From positions 16,942 to 80,941 of the forward strand of contig DLMJ01000042.1 of assembly GCA_002479255.1 (NCBI GenBank): 64,000 bases of DNA, given 5' to 3'. Each line of letters begins with the position of its first letter. Within the stretch, counting starts at the first letter, position 1. Source of the stretch: Candidatus Binatus soli (GTDB lineage Bacteria; Desulfobacterota; Binatia; Binatales; Binataceae). A program made the translations under genes and the position numbers. The notes under the pieces were generated by a model, which made no database searches, had not been told where the DNA came from, and saw only the letters and a list, made by a program, of their open reading frames with translations. Below, in pieces: positions 1-59,601 of this stretch.

Positions 1-31
1 GCGCCGCTGGAACATTCCGGCGGCGCTTTTT
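1..31 (+). terminator. Hairpin (1-26, one mismatch) followed by T5; candidate rho-independent terminator for a plus-strand gene lying off-window
   Basis: Inverted repeat gcgccgctgg/ccggcggcgc followed by ttttt, read directly from the sequence. Confidence 0.3.
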
Positions 32-43
32 CCGGGTCTATTT

Positions 44-70
44 TTTCACTTTTCACTTTTCACTTTTTCA
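44..70. repeat. (CACTTTT)3 tandem heptamer repeat
   Basis: Direct reading: cacttttcacttttcactttttcacc. Confidence 0.5.
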
Positions 71-75
71 CCGGC

Positions 76-627
76 CTAGTAGAACCACTTGCCGTTATCC
101 CAGCGGAAAATTTCCGTGGTGTGAGTATCGCTGATGGCCCTTGGCGACGCGTGCTTGGCTTCATCCCGGGACTTGCCGGCCAGGTAATAGATGAATTCTT
201 CGTAGGTGAGCTTTCCGATCGAGTAACCGTCTTTGGATTGATGCGATTCGCAGCCGGCGACCTTGCTATAAGCGGTATAGGTCGCGGTCTCGAAACCATT
301 TTTCAAATCGAATCTCAATTTCGACAGATTGTTCGTCTCGCGCTCGCGCAAATCCTGCTCCCAATGACGGCAAAAATCCGGGAACAGCGCCGCGGCCTTC
401 TTGAATTCGAGATCGCGCTTGAGCCGATCGGGCGTATATTTCGCAACCAGCGCCGTGACCTCTTGCCGCAGCGTCTTCTTCGCCGCCGGTGAAGCGGATG
501 CCTGCGGAACGGCTGCGCTTCGCGATGCCGAGGCGGGTGATGCCTGTGCAGCCGCTTGCGATTGGGCGCGCGCCGGCGTCGCCGCGAATAGCGCCGTGAT
601 TGCGAGCGCGGCGACGGCGGCTCTCAT
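76..627 (-). CDS. Hypothetical secreted protein (signal peptide MRAAVAALAITALFAATPARA); start taken at the internal ATG at 627
   Basis: ORF track 76..699; N-terminal signal-peptide-like segment starts at the Met at 627; no recognisable family. Confidence 0.55.
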   Translation of the reverse strand: MRAAVAALAITALFAATPARAQSQAAAQASPASASRSAAVPQASASPAAKKTLRQEVTALVAKYTPDRLKRDLEFKKAAALFPDFCRHWEQDLRERETNNLSKLRFDLKNGFETATYTAYSKVAGCESHQSKDGYSIGKLTYEEFIYYLAGKSRDEAKHASPRAISDTHTTEIFRWDNGKWFY

Positions 628-710
628 CTCGACTGTTCGAATAAACATCATAGCGATGTTTTCTATAGCAAAAATACGCACCAGCGTCAGCATGAACAAC
701 GGGCGCGGGA

Positions 711-750
711 GAGAAAAAAAATGGCCGCAGCCCCCGATGGGACTGCGGCC
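711..750 (-). terminator. Rho-independent terminator of OmpA-like copy 1 (8-bp GC stem ggccgcag/ctgcggcc, 12-nt loop, then T8 on minus strand)
   Basis: Stem 723-730/743-750 with A8 on plus (T8 on minus) immediately 3' of the gene end at 780. Confidence 0.65.
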
Positions 751-779
751 GATTGCGGACGTTTCAGTCTCGGCCCGAC

Positions 780-1457
780 TTATTGATTGGGCACCAGTTC
801 GACGCGGCGGTTCTGAGCGCGGCCCTCAGCAGTGTCGTTGGTGGCTACGAAGTCGGTCTTGCCGTACCCGTGCGGAATCAACTGACTCGACGGGATTCCG
901 GCTTTCACGAGGTAATCCACCACGGCGTCTGAACGTCGATCAGACAACTTCAAGTTGTATTCCTCGCTGCCGATCGCGTCGCAGTAGCCGTTGACGTTGA
1001 TCGTGACGTTCGGATTGGCCTTAAGTGTTGATGCGGCTTCATCCAGAACGGCGGCATCACCCGGGCGAATCTTCGACTTGTTGAAGTCGAAATGCACACC
1101 GCGTAACACCAGCTTCTGCCTGATCGGCGGCGGTGGTGGCGGTGGCGGAGGAGGAGGCGGCGGTGGAGGCGGTGGCGGAGGAGGCGGTGGCACCCGTTTC
1201 GGCGCCAGCAGGTAGCCGATCGTGCCGCCGATCAGAGCGCCCCCCACAACGCCCGTGGGGCATCCGATCTCATAACCCTTTGCGGAACCACTTACCCCGG
1301 CAGCAACTCCACACCCTATCCCTCCGCCGACGAGCGCCCCGCCGGCCGCTCCGTACGCGGTGTACTCTTTCTGCTCAGGCGTCCACGACGCGCACGACGA
1401 GACCGTCAAAAGAGCGACAGACGCCGCTACGGTAATCCAACTTTTCCATCTAAACAT
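780..1457 (-). CDS. OmpA-family lipoprotein, paralogue 1: lipobox LLTVSSC, Gly-zipper N-domain, ~24-Pro linker, OmpA C-terminal peptidoglycan-binding domain
   Basis: C-terminal NRRVE OmpA/MotB signature. Start chosen at ATG 1457 (MFRWKSW), which has GGGAGGG 6 nt upstream; the track start 1505 lacks an SD. Confidence 0.85.
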   Translation of the reverse strand: MFRWKSWITVAASVALLTVSSCASWTPEQKEYTAYGAAGGALVGGGIGCGVAAGVSGSAKGYEIGCPTGVVGGALIGGTIGYLLAPKRVPPPPPPPPPPPPPPPPPPPPPPIRQKLVLRGVHFDFNKSKIRPGDAAVLDEAASTLKANPNVTINVNGYCDAIGSEEYNLKLSDRRSDAVVDYLVKAGIPSSQLIPHGYGKTDFVATNDTAEGRAQNRRVELVPNQ

Positions 1458-1580
1458 GAGCATCCCTCCCTGGGTTCCAAGTAATTCCAGAATTAAACAC
1501 CGCAAATCCTGCCATTTTTGGGAAACGAAGTCTATTGAAGAGGCGAATCTTTCGCGCTCCGAGACTCGTAATGATGAGGA

Positions 1581-1622
1581 TTCGTTACATTGGTTACATA
1601 CTGGTTATATATTGGTTACATA
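1581..1622. promoter_or_regulatory. Four tandem ~11-bp direct repeats (core GTTACAT; ATGTAAC on the gene strand) upstream of OmpA-like copy 1; candidate response-regulator operator
   Basis: Units tcGTTACATtg / GTTACATactg / GTTATATattg / GTTACATaaag with 9/11/11-bp spacing. Confidence 0.4.
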
Positions 1623-1656
1623 AAGAAGCGGCCGCAACCCCCGATGGGACTGCGGC
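1618..1656 (-). terminator. Terminator-like hairpin of OmpA-like copy 2 (ggccgcaa/ctgcggcc, one mismatch) with a T-rich tail
   Basis: Paralogous copy of the 711-750 hairpin, 3' of the gene end at 1687. Confidence 0.5.
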
Positions 1657-1686
1657 CGATTGCGGACATTTCAATCTCGGCCCCGC

Positions 1687-2367
1687 TTATTGATTGGGCA
1701 CCAGTTCGACGCGACGGTTCTGAGCGCGGCCCTTAGCCGTGTCGTTGGTGGCGACGAAGTCGGTCTTGCCGTACCCGTGCGGAATTAACTGGCTCGACGG
1801 GATTCCGGCTTTCACGAGGTAATCCACCACGGCGTCTGAACGGCGGTCGGACAGCTTCAAGTTGTATTCCTCGCCCCCGATCGCATCGCAGTATCCGTTG
1901 ACGTTGATCGTCACGTTCCGATTGGCCTTAAGCGTTGATGCGGCTTCATCCAGAACGGCGGCATCACCCGGGCGGATCTTCGACTTGTTGAAGTCGAAAT
2001 GCGCACCGCGGATCACCAGCTTCTCCTTGACCGGAGGCGGTGGTGGCGGTGGCGGAGGAGGCGGCGGCGGTGGTGGAGGTGGCGGCGGTGGTGGAGGAGG
2101 CACCGGCTTCGGCGACAGCAAGTAGCCGTTCACGCCGCCGATCAGAGCGCCCATCACAACCCCCGTGATGCATCCGATCTTATAACTCTCTAAGGAACCA
2201 CTCGTTCCCGCCGCAATTCCGCACCCCAGCCCTCCGCCGACGAGCGCGCCGCCGGTCGCTCCGACTGCGGTGTACTCTCTCTGTTCGGGCGTCCACGACG
2301 CGCACGACGAGACCGTCAAAAGAGCGACAGACGCTGCCGCGCCAATCCAATTTTTCCATCTGATCAT
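1687..2367 (-). CDS. OmpA-family lipoprotein, paralogue 2 (Gly-zipper N-domain, ~25-Pro linker, OmpA C domain)
   Basis: Near-identical C-terminal domain to copy 1. Start at ATG 2367 (MIRWKNW) with AGGGG 5 nt upstream; the track start 2373 is a GTG. Confidence 0.85.
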   Translation of the reverse strand: MIRWKNWIGAAASVALLTVSSCASWTPEQREYTAVGATGGALVGGGLGCGIAAGTSGSLESYKIGCITGVVMGALIGGVNGYLLSPKPVPPPPPPPPPPPPPPPPPPPPPPPVKEKLVIRGAHFDFNKSKIRPGDAAVLDEAASTLKANRNVTINVNGYCDAIGGEEYNLKLSDRRSDAVVDYLVKAGIPSSQLIPHGYGKTDFVATNDTAKGRAQNRRVELVPNQ

Positions 2368-2490
2368 GGGCACCCCTGCCTGGTTTCAAGTAATTCTGGA
2401 ATTAAACACCGCAAATCCTGCCATTTTTGGGAACCGAGGTCTATTGAAGAGTCGAATCTTTCGCACTCCTGAGATTCGTAATGATGAGGA

Positions 2491-2521
2491 TTCGTTACAT
2501 TGGTTACATATTGGTTACATA
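2491..2521. promoter_or_regulatory. Three tandem GTTACAT direct repeats upstream of OmpA-like copy 2 (one 11-bp unit fewer than upstream of copy 1)
   Basis: ttcGTTACATtgGTTACATattgGTTACATa. Confidence 0.4.
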
Positions 2522-2557
2522 AAAGAAGCGGCCGCAGCCCCCGATGGGACTGCGGCC
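2517..2557 (-). terminator. Terminator hairpin of OmpA-like copy 3 (perfect ggccgcag/ctgcggcc stem, then GCTTCTTTTATG)
   Basis: Paralogous hairpin 2530-2537/2550-2557, 3' of the gene end at 2587. Confidence 0.5.
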
Positions 2558-2586
2558 GATTGCGGACGTTTCAGTCTCGGCCCGGC

Positions 2587-3303
2587 TTATTGATTGGGCG
2601 CCAGTTCGACGCGGCGGTTCTGAGCGCGGCCCTCAGCAGTGTCGTTGGTGGCTACGAAGTCGGTCTTGCCGTACCCGTGCGGAATCAACTGACTCGACGG
2701 GATTCCGGCTTTCACGAGGTAATCCACCACGGCGTCTGAACGGCGGTCGGACAGCTTCAAGTTGTATTCCTCGCTGCCGATCGCGTCGCAGTAGCCGTTG
2801 ACGTTGATCGTGACGTTCGGATTGGCCTTAAGCGTTGATGCGGCTTCATCCAGAACGGCGGCATCACCCGGGCGAATTTTCGACTTGTTGAAGTCGAAAT
2901 GCACACCGCGTAGCACCAGCTTCTCCTTGACCGGAGGCGGTGGTGGCGGTGGCGGAGGAGGCGGCGGGGGTGGAGGCGGCGGCGGTGGAGGAGGTGGCGG
3001 CGGAATTAGCGGATCGCAGATGTAGTGGCCTGCCAACGCGCCGAGTCCCGCGCCTATGACTGCTCCACCCACACCGGCATAAGCCCTGGCGTCTTTGTCG
3101 CTCTGGTGACGTCCCGCGACATTGTCAGCGATGACGATTCCTGAGGCTGCACCTACCCCTGCGCCAAGCAGTCCTCCGACGACCGCGCAGGTTCCCCACG
3201 AGCGTGGCTTCTGCAAATTTGCGCAACCGCCCAAACTGGAGGCGATTAGCGCCGCACCCGCGACACCGGCGACCGCATTTAAAAACCTTGATTTCAGTCT
3301 CAT
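2587..3303 (-). CDS. OmpA-family lipoprotein, paralogue 3 (different N-terminal domain with lipobox LGGC, ~26-Pro linker, same OmpA C domain)
   Basis: Start at ATG 3303 (MRLKSRF) with GAGGAGGAG 3-5 nt upstream; C-terminal domain about 95% identical to copies 1 and 2. Confidence 0.8.
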   Translation of the reverse strand: MRLKSRFLNAVAGVAGAALIASSLGGCANLQKPRSWGTCAVVGGLLGAGVGAASGIVIADNVAGRHQSDKDARAYAGVGGAVIGAGLGALAGHYICDPLIPPPPPPPPPPPPPPPPPPPPPPPPVKEKLVLRGVHFDFNKSKIRPGDAAVLDEAASTLKANPNVTINVNGYCDAIGSEEYNLKLSDRRSDAVVDYLVKAGIPSSQLIPHGYGKTDFVATNDTAEGRAQNRRVELAPNQ

Positions 3304-3753
3304 GAACTCCTCCTCACCCAAGTGCGTCTATGCGCGAAGCGAACCCCCTCACTTGCCCCTGAGCGTCAATCGTGCCAAACGGGAACTATCCCACCCAATT
3401 GACGGGAAAATATAGTTATATTTGTAACAAGAATGCAACATCTCCGGGGGGTGAAAAGGCGAGATTTTTTGCCCGGGCTGGCGAGCGTTCTCTCGGTGCA
3501 GCCCGGGCTTTCTGTGGATAAGTGGTGGTGAAATTGCCGCGATTTCCCGGTCAAGCTCGGCTCATATAACGCGTAACGCTCTGAATGCCCGCAAAGACGC
3601 TGTTCGGAGCGGTCGTTTGAGTCGAATTAATACTGGTTTGTGTCGCCCTTATGGTGGCCATGCTTCTGCGCATTGGTCTGTTGCCTGAAACCCGTCTGAC
3701 TTGAAGGCGAATTCCGCGCGAAGCGGAAACCCTGCTAGACTGTTTCGCTCATC

Positions 3754-6017
<2,264 letters not shown>

Positions 6018-6021
<4 letters not shown>

Positions 6022-58503: not shown

Positions 58504-59601
58504 TCATCCGCCCGGCGTCGCGGTCGCCGTAGGAGTCGCGCTCAGGGTTGCGGTTGCGGTTGCCGTTCGGGTTGCCGTCGCGGTTGCGGTTGCCGTTGGG
58601 GTTGCAGTCGTAGTTGCCGTCGCGGTCGCGGTAGCGGTTGGGGTTCCCGTTCGGGTTGCCGTCGCGGTAACGGTTACCGTCGCGGTTGCGGTTGTCGTTG
58701 GGGTTGGAGTCGTAGTTTGAGTCGCGGTCGCGGTAGTGGTTGGTGTTGCCGTTCGGGTTGCCGTCGCGGTAGCGGTCGCCGTCGCGGTAGCGGTCGCCGT
58801 CGCGGTAGCGGTTGCAGTCGCGGTAGCGGTTGCCGTTGGGGATGCCGTTGGGGTTGCCGTCACGGTCGGGGTCGGGGTCGCGGTCGGCGCTACGAAGATG
58901 CAGGCGCAGGAGCCTTGTCCGCTACCCAGCCGTGTGATGTCGGCGCACGTTTCCGGCAGTCCGTCATTGAGTTCGTCCGCAGCCGGAACATCGGCTTGGA
59001 ACACGTCTTCGGTGATCTGGGTATTCTGAACGTGAGATGCCCAAGCCATTAGTTCGCTATTGGTGGCCAGTATGAAGCTGGTGCCCGCCGCGGTTGGATC
59101 GCAGCAGACGCCGGTGCTGGGGTCGCAAGCTGCATATGTGGGCTGCGAATCCCCGTATGGAGCTGGAGTGCCATTTGGCAAGGTCGATATGATACGGACC
59201 GAGCCGTCGTGGAGGAGGCCCCCTGTCACCGGGTTCCCCGCCAAACTGCCACTGATGCTGAGGGTCAACAGACCATCCGCGGTCAGCGGGCATCCGCAGC
59301 AGGCCTGCATCGATTGCTCGGTATTGAAGACGTAGATCATCGCGCAGATTTCGCCCTCTCGCGAGGCGGGGGTGGCGCCCGTTGCATCTCCCTCGAGGGG
59401 AGCCGTGATATTGACGGAGGCCTGTCCCCCCTTGGTGTTGGCGTTGCTGAAATAATTCTGCAACTCAGTCCCGTACTCTTCGGACTCTGCCGCCGCCCTG
59501 CCTGACAACGCGAACGTCGCGAGGGCCACGGCCAGCAGAATCATCGTGCTTGTGCTCAGGACTCTCTTACCTAAAGGCGCTAAGGCCCATACACCATTCA
59601 T
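58504..59601 (-). CDS. Secreted Cys-rich protein with a ~115-aa C-terminal (Thr-Ala)n / TATP low-complexity tail
   Basis: Signal peptide, then a ~200-aa domain with 10 Cys (ACCGCP, CDPSTGVCCDP, CACIF), then TATATATA...PGG. Start at ATG 59601 (MNGVW) with GGGAG upstream. Confidence 0.7.
   Translation of the reverse strand: MNGVWALAPLGKRVLSTSTMILLAVALATFALSGRAAAESEEYGTELQNYFSNANTKGGQASVNITAPLEGDATGATPASREGEICAMIYVFNTEQSMQACCGCPLTADGLLTLSISGSLAGNPVTGGLLHDGSVRIISTLPNGTPAPYGDSQPTYAACDPSTGVCCDPTAAGTSFILATNSELMAWASHVQNTQITEDVFQADVPAADELNDGLPETCADITRLGSGQGSCACIFVAPTATPTPTVTATPTASPTATATATATATATATATATATATATATRTATPTTTATATQTTTPTPTTTATATVTVTATATRTGTPTATATATATTTATPTATATATATRTATATATLSATPTATATPGG
58507..58870. 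repeat. Coding hexanucleotide microsatellite (GCSGTM)n, ~360 bp, encoding the (Thr-Ala)n tail on the minus strand
   Basis: gtcgcggtagcggtcgccgtcgcggtagcggt... read directly. Confidence 0.7.

What the first reader, a model, noticed from the sequence alone, without database searches (positions are those of the whole stretch)
1581..2521. 11-bp tandem direct repeats (GTTACAT core) upstream of two OmpA paralogues, with a one-unit copy-number difference
Upstream of copy 1 (1581-1622) there are four contiguous ~11-bp units (GTTACAT, GTTACAT, GTTATAT, GTTACAT). Upstream of copy 2 (2491-2521) there are three, and the otherwise near-identical promoter regions differ by exactly one 11-bp unit. Eleven-bp periodicity puts the units on one face of the helix. 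That geometry is used by OmpR/PhoB/CpxR-family response regulators (CpxR binds GTAAA-N5-GTAAA). Copy 3 lacks the array but has a TTGTAACA element. The arrays sit between the upstream paralogue's terminator hairpin and the downstream paralogue's start. This places them in the promoter, not in a UTR.
Basis: seen in the sequence. Interest (0 to 1): 0.55.

Follow-up and report, generated by a model that had tools for sequence, protein, structure and literature searches.

The report
Repeated promoter-upstream boxes before OmpA-like genes
Two short arrays of a repeated 9-11-base motif sit upstream of the predicted promoters of two duplicated cell-envelope lipoprotein genes in an uncultured peat bacterium (Candidatus Binatus); they are most likely extra copies of a conserved regulator-binding box, which is an ordinary kind of gene control, new only for this lineage.

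Summary
The arrays are real: GTTACAT-type units at 1580-1621 (4 units) and 2490-2520 (3 units). Spacing is 9/11/11 and 9/11, not a uniform 11. The genes are on the minus strand, so the units read ATGTAAC(C/G)AAT towards the genes.

The window comes from Candidatus Binatus (Binataceae). I compared 79 paralogue-to-paralogue spacers from about 40 species. They share one layout: terminator, two direct-repeat boxes (core WWACGAA, 10-11 bp apart, gene strand only), about 30 nt, then a sigma-70-like promoter, AAT[A/G]GACC-N17-CANAAT.

The window's arrays are a lineage-specific amplification of that box, with 2-4 units in five close species. The proximal GTAACGAAT is invariant in all 8 promoters of the clade. 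By prediction the arrays lie at about -81 to -122.

Array sequence and copy number are identical in every same-species contig examined (20 metagenome samples or assemblies), and the first-spacer array has 3 units in four species. So this is not a phase-variable tract. Predicted curvature is ordinary, the sigma-54 and CpxR patterns fail, and no known RNA family matches.

Best reading: an upstream activator-site array for a regulator that binds direct repeats, possibly of the OmpR/PhoB type. The distal units may be neutral slippage copies. No binding or transcription-start data exist. Interest is low to moderate.

The parts
2490..2520 (-). Array upstream of g2. Three units read on the gene strand: ATGTAACCAAT (2520-2510), ATGTAACCA (2509-2501), ATGTAACGAAT (2500-2490). 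About -82 to -112 from the predicted transcription start.
1580..1621 (-). Array upstream of g1. Four units: ATGTAACCAAT (1621-1611), ATATAACCAGT (1610-1600, degenerate), ATGTAACCA (1599-1591), ATGTAACGAAT (1590-1580). About -81 to -122 from the predicted start.
2474..2482 (-). Box B upstream of g2 (ATTACGAAT). It sits at the position where TTACG is conserved across Binataceae, 38 nt upstream of the -35 hexamer and 16 bp downstream of the proximal array unit.
1564..1572 (-). Box B upstream of g1 (ATTACGAGT).
2415..2443 (-). Predicted promoter of g2: -35-like TAGACC (2443-2438), 17-nt spacer with an A-tract and TGG, -10-like CAGGAT (2420-2415). Predicted start near 2408. ATG at 2367.
   Evidence: inferred from conservation; no transcription-start data
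1506..1534 (-). Predicted promoter of g1: TAGACT (1534-1529), N17, CAGGAT (1511-1506). Predicted start near 1499. ATG at 1457.
2521..2558 (-). Intrinsic terminator of g3: 13-bp stem, -29.3 kcal/mol, interrupted T-tract CTTCTTTT. It directly abuts the g2 array.
1622..1658 (-). Intrinsic terminator of g2: -24 kcal/mol, T-tract CTTCTTT. It directly abuts the g1 array.
715..750 (-). Terminator of g1, the last paralogue: perfect T8 tract, with no array and no promoter module after it.
1687..2367 (-). g2: lipoprotein with a glycine-rich N-terminal part, a poly-proline linker and an OmpA C-terminal domain (YiaD/PA1041-like, below the curated cut-offs).
780..1457 (-). g1: paralogue of g2.
2587..3303 (-). 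g3: first paralogue. It has its own, different promoter and no array.

Best explanation
The arrays are tandemly amplified copies of a conserved promoter-upstream box.

In Binataceae, each downstream member of a tandem family of OmpA-C lipoprotein genes has its own internal promoter, with a -35-like T[A/G]GACC, a 17-nt spacer and an extended -10-like [T/A]GnCAnAAT. About 30 nt upstream of that -35 lie two direct-repeat boxes with core WWACGAA, usually 10-11 bp apart, always on the gene strand.

In the window's lineage the box has been multiplied to 2-4 units of ATGTAAC(C/G)AAT. These lie at roughly -81 to -122 from the predicted start.

The most likely function is an array of binding sites for a transcription activator that recognises direct repeats. 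An OmpR/PhoB-type winged-helix response regulator is the most plausible class. It would act from a class-I-like upstream position on a sigma-70-type promoter.

The two proximal units (GTNACCNAT-GTAACGAAT) are the constrained core. The one or two distal units may add cooperative or lower-threshold binding, so that g1 (4 units) and g2 (3 units) could respond differently. Or they may be neutral slippage copies.

What is shown: the repeat anatomy, the conserved layout, the fixed position and strand of the boxes, and the stability of copy number. What is inferred: the promoter and its start site, protein binding, the direction of regulation and the regulator class.
For: - Layout conserved in 79 spacers from about 40 species.
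- Promoter module with fixed 17-nt spacing: 60 hits upstream of paralogues and 1 elsewhere in 612 kb.
- Half-site WWAC[G/C][A/G]A: 41 on the gene strand, 6 on the other strand, 2.7 in shuffles. Peaks at -39/-38 and -51..-48 from the -35 hexamer.
- Several promoters carry a perfect TTACGA-N5-TTACGA.
- The boxes accompany the promoter even without an upstream paralogue or terminator (L030, L033, L035). They are absent after the last terminator.
- In the window's clade GTAACGAAT is invariant in 8 of 8 promoters, while units per promoter vary (2, 2, 2, 3, 3, 3, 3, 4). The first-spacer array has 3 units in four species.
- Array-type unit pairs occur only upstream of these paralogues: 12 against 1 elsewhere, with 0.55 expected.
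- The + strand unit equals the core of the E. coli OmpR ChIP-exo motif KWWGTTACAT, and the known repeat GTTACATTTTGTTACAT is likewise a direct repeat (PMC5438342).
- The arrays have no RNA structure (z-scores +0.6 and -0.5), and no Rfam family matches.
Against: - No experimental data exist for this uncultured phylum: no transcription start, no binding, no expression.
- Spacing in the window is irregular (9, 11, (11), then 16 to box B). It does not fit a regular 10-11-bp head-to-tail register.
- Relative to the gene, the OmpR-like GTTACAT reads away from the promoter. This is opposite to E. coli ompF as I recall it.
- The ATG part of the unit lies outside the family-wide conserved core, so the OmpR likeness may be coincidence.
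- The distal units carry substitutions (ATATAACCAGT, GTGTCACC, GTGACC).
- One species (L029) lacks the whole upstream block, and the hairpin abuts the -35.
- No OmpR-like regulator gene is nearby.
- No further sites were found outside these promoters in the DNA available, so no regulon is visible.
- The whole spacer is 81% conserved in the clade, so conservation of the units discriminates only weakly.
Confidence: 0.5

Rival explanations
1. Only the conserved proximal boxes are functional. The extra distal units, and therefore the one-unit difference between g1 and g2, are neutral products of replication slippage or unequal exchange between the near-identical spacers. They have no regulatory consequence.
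For: - Distal units are the ones that vary in number (2-4) and carry substitutions, while GTAACGAAT is invariant.
- The two spacers are 92% identical, and the gene 3' halves are 94-98% identical. This indicates recent duplication or gene conversion.
- L029 does without the whole block.
Against: - The 3-unit state of the first spacer is kept in four species.
- The arrays are identical in all same-species contigs. This shows stability, although stability is also expected for neutral sequence over short times.
Confidence: 0.3
2. The arrays act without a sequence-specific regulator. They would be an AT-rich, bendable or curved spacer that insulates the promoter from the upstream terminator, an UP-like element, or a target for a nucleoid-associated protein.
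For: The arrays are AT-rich (about 30% G+C) in a genome of about 62% G+C and lie between a terminator and a promoter.
Against: - A wedge-model calculation gives ordinary curvature over the arrays: mean about 10 degrees per 30 bp, against a window mean of 8.4 and sd of 4.7. The local peaks fall on the promoter's A-tract instead (model parameters recalled from memory).
- The arrays lie at -81 to -122, beyond the usual UP-element zone of -40 to -60.
- The motif is strand-specific and position-specific across species, which composition alone does not explain.
Confidence: 0.1
3. The arrays are a phase-variable (contingency) repeat tract. Frequent gain and loss of units would switch expression of surface lipoproteins.
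For: Copy number differs between the two paralogues and between species, from 2 to 4. The genes encode envelope proteins.
Against: - There are only 3-4 imperfect units.
- 19 copies of the 3-unit array and 21 copies of the 4-unit array, from 20 metagenome samples or assemblies, are identical in sequence.
- The orthologous first-spacer array has 3 units in four species.
- A metagenome scan for three perfect 11-bp units found only 4 unrelated low-G+C contigs.
- The units lie upstream of the -35, so gain or loss does not change the -35/-10 spacing.
Confidence: 0.03
4. The arrays act at the RNA level, in read-through transcripts from the upstream paralogue, or on the + strand as an antisense promoter.
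For: - The internal terminators have interrupted U-tracts (CUUCUUUU), whereas the last one has U8, so some read-through is plausible.
- A sigma-70-like match, GTTACA-N18-TATATT, lies on the + strand in the g1 array.
Against: - The arrays are unstructured as RNA.
- No Rfam family matches.
- The + strand promoter match exists only in the 4-unit array and equals the chance expectation of 1.0 per region.
- The boxes are present in loci with no upstream gene.
Confidence: 0.04
5. The conserved TGGCA element is a sigma-54 promoter, and the arrays are the upstream activating sequence of an enhancer-binding protein.
For: TGGCAG/TGGCAC is conserved upstream of g1 and g2 and their relatives. Upstream of g3, TGGCACGATTGACGC has the GG-N10-GC spacing.
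Against: - Upstream of g1/g2-type genes the spacing is GG-N8-GC.
- The second G varies between species (TGACA, TGTCA, TGCCA), and the first T is often A. The GG is invariant in sigma-54 promoters.
- The pattern fits an extended -10, TGn + CAnAAT, with a -35-like box exactly 17 nt upstream.
Confidence: 0.02

Closest known systems
OmpR binding-site arrays upstream of E. coli ompF/ompC (F1-F3, C1-C3), and OmpR/PhoB-family response-regulator boxes in general
   Same: - Several tandem direct-repeat half-sites of about 10 bp lie upstream of the -35 of an envelope-protein gene.
- The + strand unit GTTACAT equals the core of the OmpR ChIP-exo motif KWWGTTACAT (PMC5438342).
- The family-wide boxes are 10-11 bp apart.
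   Different: - The half-site register in this genome is 9/11/16, not a regular 10.
- The motif points away from the gene.
- The core conserved across Binataceae is WWACGAA, not GTTACA.
- The genes are peptidoglycan-anchoring lipoproteins, not porins.
- No cognate regulator has been identified, and the organism belongs to a different phylum.
CpxR box (GTAAA-N5-GTAAA)
   Same: Direct repeats beginning GTAA. Box A in most Binataceae reads GTAAACGAAC.
   Different: The second half-site in most species is TATTACGA, not GTAAA. In the window the units are GTAAC with gaps of N6 and N4, not N5.
Phase-variable promoter-proximal repeats, such as the 7-bp repeats upstream of Haemophilus hmw genes or the TAAA repeats upstream of Neisseria nadA (recalled from general knowledge)
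   Same: Short tandem repeats upstream of surface-protein genes, with a copy number that differs between paralogues.
   Different: Few and imperfect units. No polymorphism within the population. Copy number conserved across species.

Membership tests
OmpR/PhoB-type response-regulator site array | Direct (not inverted) repeats of a half-site, on one strand | tested here: met
   WWAC[G/C][A/G]A: 41 on the gene strand, 6 on the other strand, 2.7 in shuffles. The units are direct repeats.
OmpR/PhoB-type response-regulator site array | Half-sites in a 10-11-bp register | tested here: inconclusive
   Met family-wide: peaks about 10-11 bp apart, and several promoters carry perfect TTACGA-N5-TTACGA pairs. 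In the window the spacings are 9, 11, (11) and 16.
OmpR/PhoB-type response-regulator site array | Position upstream of, or overlapping, the -35 of a sigma-70-type promoter | tested here: met
   Predicted promoter with fixed 17-nt spacing, 38 nt downstream of box B. The promoter is inferred from conservation only.
OmpR/PhoB-type response-regulator site array | Specific binding by a winged-helix response regulator | not testable with these tools
   Needs EMSA or DAP-seq. The organism is uncultured.
OmpR/PhoB-type response-regulator site array | Cognate regulator gene in the neighbourhood (common but not required) | tested here: not met
CpxR box | GTAAA-N5-GTAAA | tested here: not met
   The window arrays read GTAAC-N6-GTAAC-N4-GTAAC. 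The family consensus is tGTAAACGAAcTATTACGA.
Sigma-54 promoter with upstream activating sequence | Invariant GG and GC separated by exactly 10 nt (TGGCAC-N5-TTGC) | tested here: not met
   The spacing is GG-N8-GC, and the second G varies between species.
Phase-variable repeat tract | Copy-number polymorphism within a population | tested here: not met
   40 array copies from 20 samples or assemblies are identical. Assemblies are consensus sequences, so rare variants would be missed.
UP element / intrinsically curved upstream DNA | A+T-rich tract at -40 to -60, or phased A-tracts giving high predicted curvature | tested here: not met
   The arrays lie at -81 to -122. Their curvature is near the window average.
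Known RNA family | Match to an Rfam covariance model | tested here: not met
   The only hit in 1-4000 is RcsR1 at 1-30, E = 0.55, outside the arrays.

The most novel reading that the evidence does not exclude
The boxes are the operator of a so far undescribed envelope regulator of Binataceae that controls only the downstream members of a tandem family of peptidoglycan-anchoring lipoproteins. Lineage-specific amplification of its half-site (2, 3 or 4 units) would tune each paralogue's activation threshold. That would be evolution of paralogue-specific expression by site-number change. A stronger version holds that the GTTACAT likeness reflects a true OmpR-like regulator whose recognition motif is conserved between Proteobacteria and Binatota.
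Probability: 0.2. Interest if true: 0.4.

Novelty: new member of a known kind. Interest (0 to 1): 0.25.

Why it matters
If the reading is right, it gives a first candidate promoter and cis-regulatory motif for Binatota. This is a globally distributed, uncultured phylum for which no promoter or regulator site has been described. It also gives a small natural series of 2, 3 and 4 sites on near-identical promoters for testing how the number of binding sites sets expression of duplicated envelope genes. It would not change any general concept. Direct-repeat activator sites upstream of envelope genes are textbook biology.

Tried and rejected
- **Sigma-54 reading of the TGGCA element.** Rejected on spacing and on variability of the GG.
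- **CpxR consensus.** The spacing is wrong.
- **Phase variation.** Identical arrays in all same-species contigs, and 3 units conserved at the first spacer in four species.
- **Metagenome scan for three perfect 11-bp units.** It returned only four unrelated contigs of 32-36% G+C with no OmpA homology.
- **Intrinsic curvature.** Ordinary over the arrays.
- **RNA element.** No structure and no Rfam hit.
- **Antisense promoter on the + strand.** Present only in the 4-unit array and at the chance level.
- **Nearby OmpR-type regulator.** None found.
- **Regulon search.** A weight matrix of box A+B gave 55 hits of at least 15 bits upstream of the paralogues and 7 elsewhere. One of those 7 is upstream of a degraded paralogue, and the only hit in the window outside the locus scores 15.2 bits at gene-strand coordinate 58019 (about + strand 5961-5982), inside uvrB. 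The sampled DNA is biased towards this locus, so the absence of a regulon is weak evidence.
- **Literature search for a TTACGAA direct-repeat regulator motif.** Nothing useful in the titles and abstracts; none of the papers was opened.
- **Inverted repeat CGAATCT-N12-AGATTCG next to box B.** Not conserved in sister species, so dropped.

Full report
**What is in the sequence**

Positions 780-3303 carry three tandem genes on the minus strand: g1 780-1457, g2 1687-2367 and g3 2587-3303. Each protein has a lipoprotein-type signal sequence (read by eye), a glycine-rich segment, a run of 24-28 prolines and an OmpA C-terminal domain (Pfam PF00691, E about 1e-24). The best NCBIfam matches are the YiaD and PA1041 glycine-zipper/OmpA-like anchor lipoproteins, below their curated cut-offs. 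Each gene is followed by a 12-13-bp G+C-rich hairpin and a T-tract, with folding energies of -24 to -29 kcal/mol.

The reported units are present. GTTACAT starts at 1584, 1593 and 1615, with GTTATAT at 1604, and at 2494, 2503 and 2514. GGTTACAT occurs only in these arrays in the 64 kb window, 4 times against 0.33 expected.

Read on the gene strand, the arrays are:
- g2: CTTCTTTT | ATGTAACCAAT | ATGTAACCA | ATGTAACGAAT
- g1: CTTCTTT | ATGTAACCAAT | ATATAACCAGT | ATGTAACCA | ATGTAACGAAT

The spacing is therefore 11-9 and 11-11-9, not a uniform 11 (one search also reports a period of 9). The spacers are 219 and 229 nt long and 92% identical. The arrays differ by one 11-bp unit, offset by one T in the terminator tail. 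The two arrays are copies of one another, so they do not corroborate each other.

**Where the window comes from**

Exact-protein look-ups place the locus on peat-metagenome contigs and on a metagenome-assembled genome. Related loci in GTDB species representatives are titled Candidatus Binatus, Binataceae or 'uncultured delta proteobacterium'. In these loci the first gene is of the g3 type and is followed by one to four genes of the g1/g2 type.

**Comparative anatomy**

I extracted 79 spacers between consecutive paralogues. They share one layout, in this order:
- stop codon;
- a conserved stretch of about 30 nt;
- the hairpin GGCCGCAGTCCC...GGGGCTGCGGCC;
- a T-tract;
- box A (tGTAAACGAAc) and box B (tATTACGAa);
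- about 30 variable nt;
- cAAT[A/G]GACC, then 17 nt containing AAAA, then [T/A]GnCAnAAT;
- GTTTaATTCCGGAAT;
- GGGAGGGG and the start codon.

The string AAT[A/G]GA[C/T][C/T]-N17-CANAAT occurs 60 times within 140 nt upstream of a paralogue. It occurs once elsewhere, upstream of a degraded paralogue, in 612 kb on both strands. I read it as a sigma-70-type promoter with a -35-like T[A/G]GACC and an extended -10.

The TGGCA in it is not a sigma-54 -24 element. The spacing to the next GC is 8, not 10, and the second G varies (TGACA, TGTCA, TGCCA).

In the window the promoter elements fall as follows:
- g2: -35 at 2443-2438, -10 at 2420-2415, predicted start near 2408.
- g1: -35 at 1534-1529, -10 at 1511-1506, predicted start near 1499.

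The arrays then lie at about -82 to -112 (g2) and -81 to -122 (g1). All of this is inference from conservation. No transcript data exist.

**The boxes**

With sequences anchored on the -35 without gaps, TTACG sits at a fixed position, 38-39 nt upstream of the hexamer. The half-site pattern WWAC[G/C][A/G]A is found 41 times on the gene strand. It occurs 6 times on the other strand and 2.7 times in shuffles. It peaks at -39/-38 and at -51 to -48. Some promoters carry perfect pairs such as TTACGAAACTGTTACGAA, 11 bp apart.

The boxes go with the promoter and not with the terminator. They are present upstream of g1-type genes that have no paralogue before them (L030, L033, L035). They are absent after the terminator of the last gene.

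**The arrays as an amplification of the box**

ATGTAAC(C/G)AAT arrays occur only in the window species and four close relatives, L011, L012, L013 and L019. In an alignment of their eight array-type promoters, GTAACGAAT is invariant and the adjacent GTnACCnAT is nearly so. Box B decays in this clade (TTATGA, TTACGC, TTACCA, TTACTA).

Units per promoter are 3 (window g2), 4 (window g1), 3, 3, 2, 3, 2 and 2. The array in the first spacer has 3 units in four species. In the window, box B (ATTACGAAT, 2482-2474) is 16 bp from the proximal unit instead of 10.

Within the species nothing varies. There are 19 copies of the 3-unit array and 21 copies of the 4-unit array, from 20 metagenome samples or assemblies, and all are identical. 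A metagenome scan for three perfect 11-bp units returned only four unrelated low-G+C contigs.

**Tests of other readings**

- Predicted intrinsic curvature over the arrays is close to the window average. The local maxima fall on the A-tract of the promoter spacer (wedge parameters recalled from memory).
- As RNA the arrays are unstructured, and no Rfam family matches.
- The single sigma-70-like match on the + strand exists only in the 4-unit array and equals the chance expectation.
- No OmpR-like gene lies in the window or in the related loci.
- A weight matrix of box A+B and a pattern for array-type unit pairs find almost nothing outside these promoters. The available DNA is centred on this locus, so this says little about a genome-wide regulon.
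- One species (L029) has lost everything between the hairpin and the -35, so the block is dispensable at least there.

**Comparison with known systems**

The E. coli OmpR ChIP-exo motif is KWWGTTACAT, and the known repeat is GTTACATTTTGTTACAT (PMC5438342). A second paper gives GTTACAnnnnGTTACA (PMC7315122). The + strand of the arrays, GTTACATTGGTTACATATTGGTTACAT, contains that 7-mer three times as direct repeats.

I give it little weight for four reasons:
- The motif points away from the gene.
- The register is 9/11 and not 10.
- The ATG/CAT part lies outside the core conserved across Binataceae (WWACGAA).
- A 7-mer coincidence with one of many known regulator motifs is not rare.

The CpxR pattern is not met.

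**Verdict**

The location upstream of a promoter is supported by phylogenetic footprinting. The most likely function is a direct-repeat activator-site array whose proximal two units are constrained. The distal units, and the one-unit difference between the paralogues, may or may not matter.

This is a new instance of a familiar kind of element in a phylum without any described cis-regulatory sites. It is of modest interest.

Noticed in passing
window 3513-3521 (+ strand TGTGGATAA, which is TTATCCACA on the minus strand): A perfect DnaA-box consensus lies in the divergent region between uvrB (3754-6021, +) and g3. TTATCCAC is present in 33 of 49 g3-type upstream regions of other Binataceae (the 49 include a few more distant OmpA-type genes with unrelated upstream regions), sometimes in 2-3 tandem copies. 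E. coli uvrB is known to have a DnaA-regulated promoter (recalled from memory).
   Followed up: partly
window about 3390-3441 (minus strand): A block of about 50 nt, GTGTTGCATTCTTGTTACAAATATAACTATATTTCCCCGTCAATTGGGTGGG, is nearly invariant upstream of the g3-type gene in 37 of 49 such upstream regions. It contains TTGCAT-N18-TATATT (3438-3433 and 3414-3409) and the palindrome TTGTTACAA. It is followed by a conserved leader of about 100 nt. This is far more conserved than a promoter alone requires.
   Followed up: partly
window 2392-2403 and 1483-1494: A palindrome, AATTCCGGAATT in relatives (AATTCCAGAATT upstream of g2 and AATTCTGGAATT upstream of g1 in the window), lies just downstream of the predicted transcription starts of g2 and g1 and is moderately conserved across species. 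It could be an operator for a dimeric repressor or a small 5' UTR hairpin.
   Followed up: no
window 2559-2586, 1659-1686, 751-779: The roughly 30 nt between each stop codon and its terminator hairpin (GCCGGGCCGAGACTGAAACGTCCGCAA) are strongly conserved in 79 spacers across species. The internal terminators have interrupted U-tracts, whereas the last has U8. This may indicate a functional 3' UTR or graded read-through.
   Followed up: no
window 780-1110, 1687-2017, 2587-2917: The 3' 330 nt (OmpA domain) of the three paralogues are 94-98% identical at the DNA level. The 5' 250 nt of g3 are only about 57-60% identical to those of g1 and g2. This suggests gene conversion or a mosaic origin. Related species carry 2 to at least 5 tandem copies.
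   Followed up: partly
window 3466-3507: A G+C-rich hairpin, GCCCGGGCTG...CAGCCCGGGC, with a T-run before it and a short interrupted T-stretch (CTTTCTG) after it on the + strand, sits in the divergent uvrB/g3 promoter region next to the DnaA box. Similar hairpins are seen in other species. Its role is unknown.
   Followed up: no
window 58546-58887: A long imperfect tandem repeat with a 6-nt period (GGTTGC), about 52 copies, and higher-order periods of 42 and 102 nt. It probably encodes a repetitive protein. Not examined.
   Followed up: no
window 43-67: A perfect 7-nt tandem repeat, TTTTCAC x 3.6, just downstream of the conserved unknown 195-aa gene at 76-663 (minus strand).
   Followed up: no
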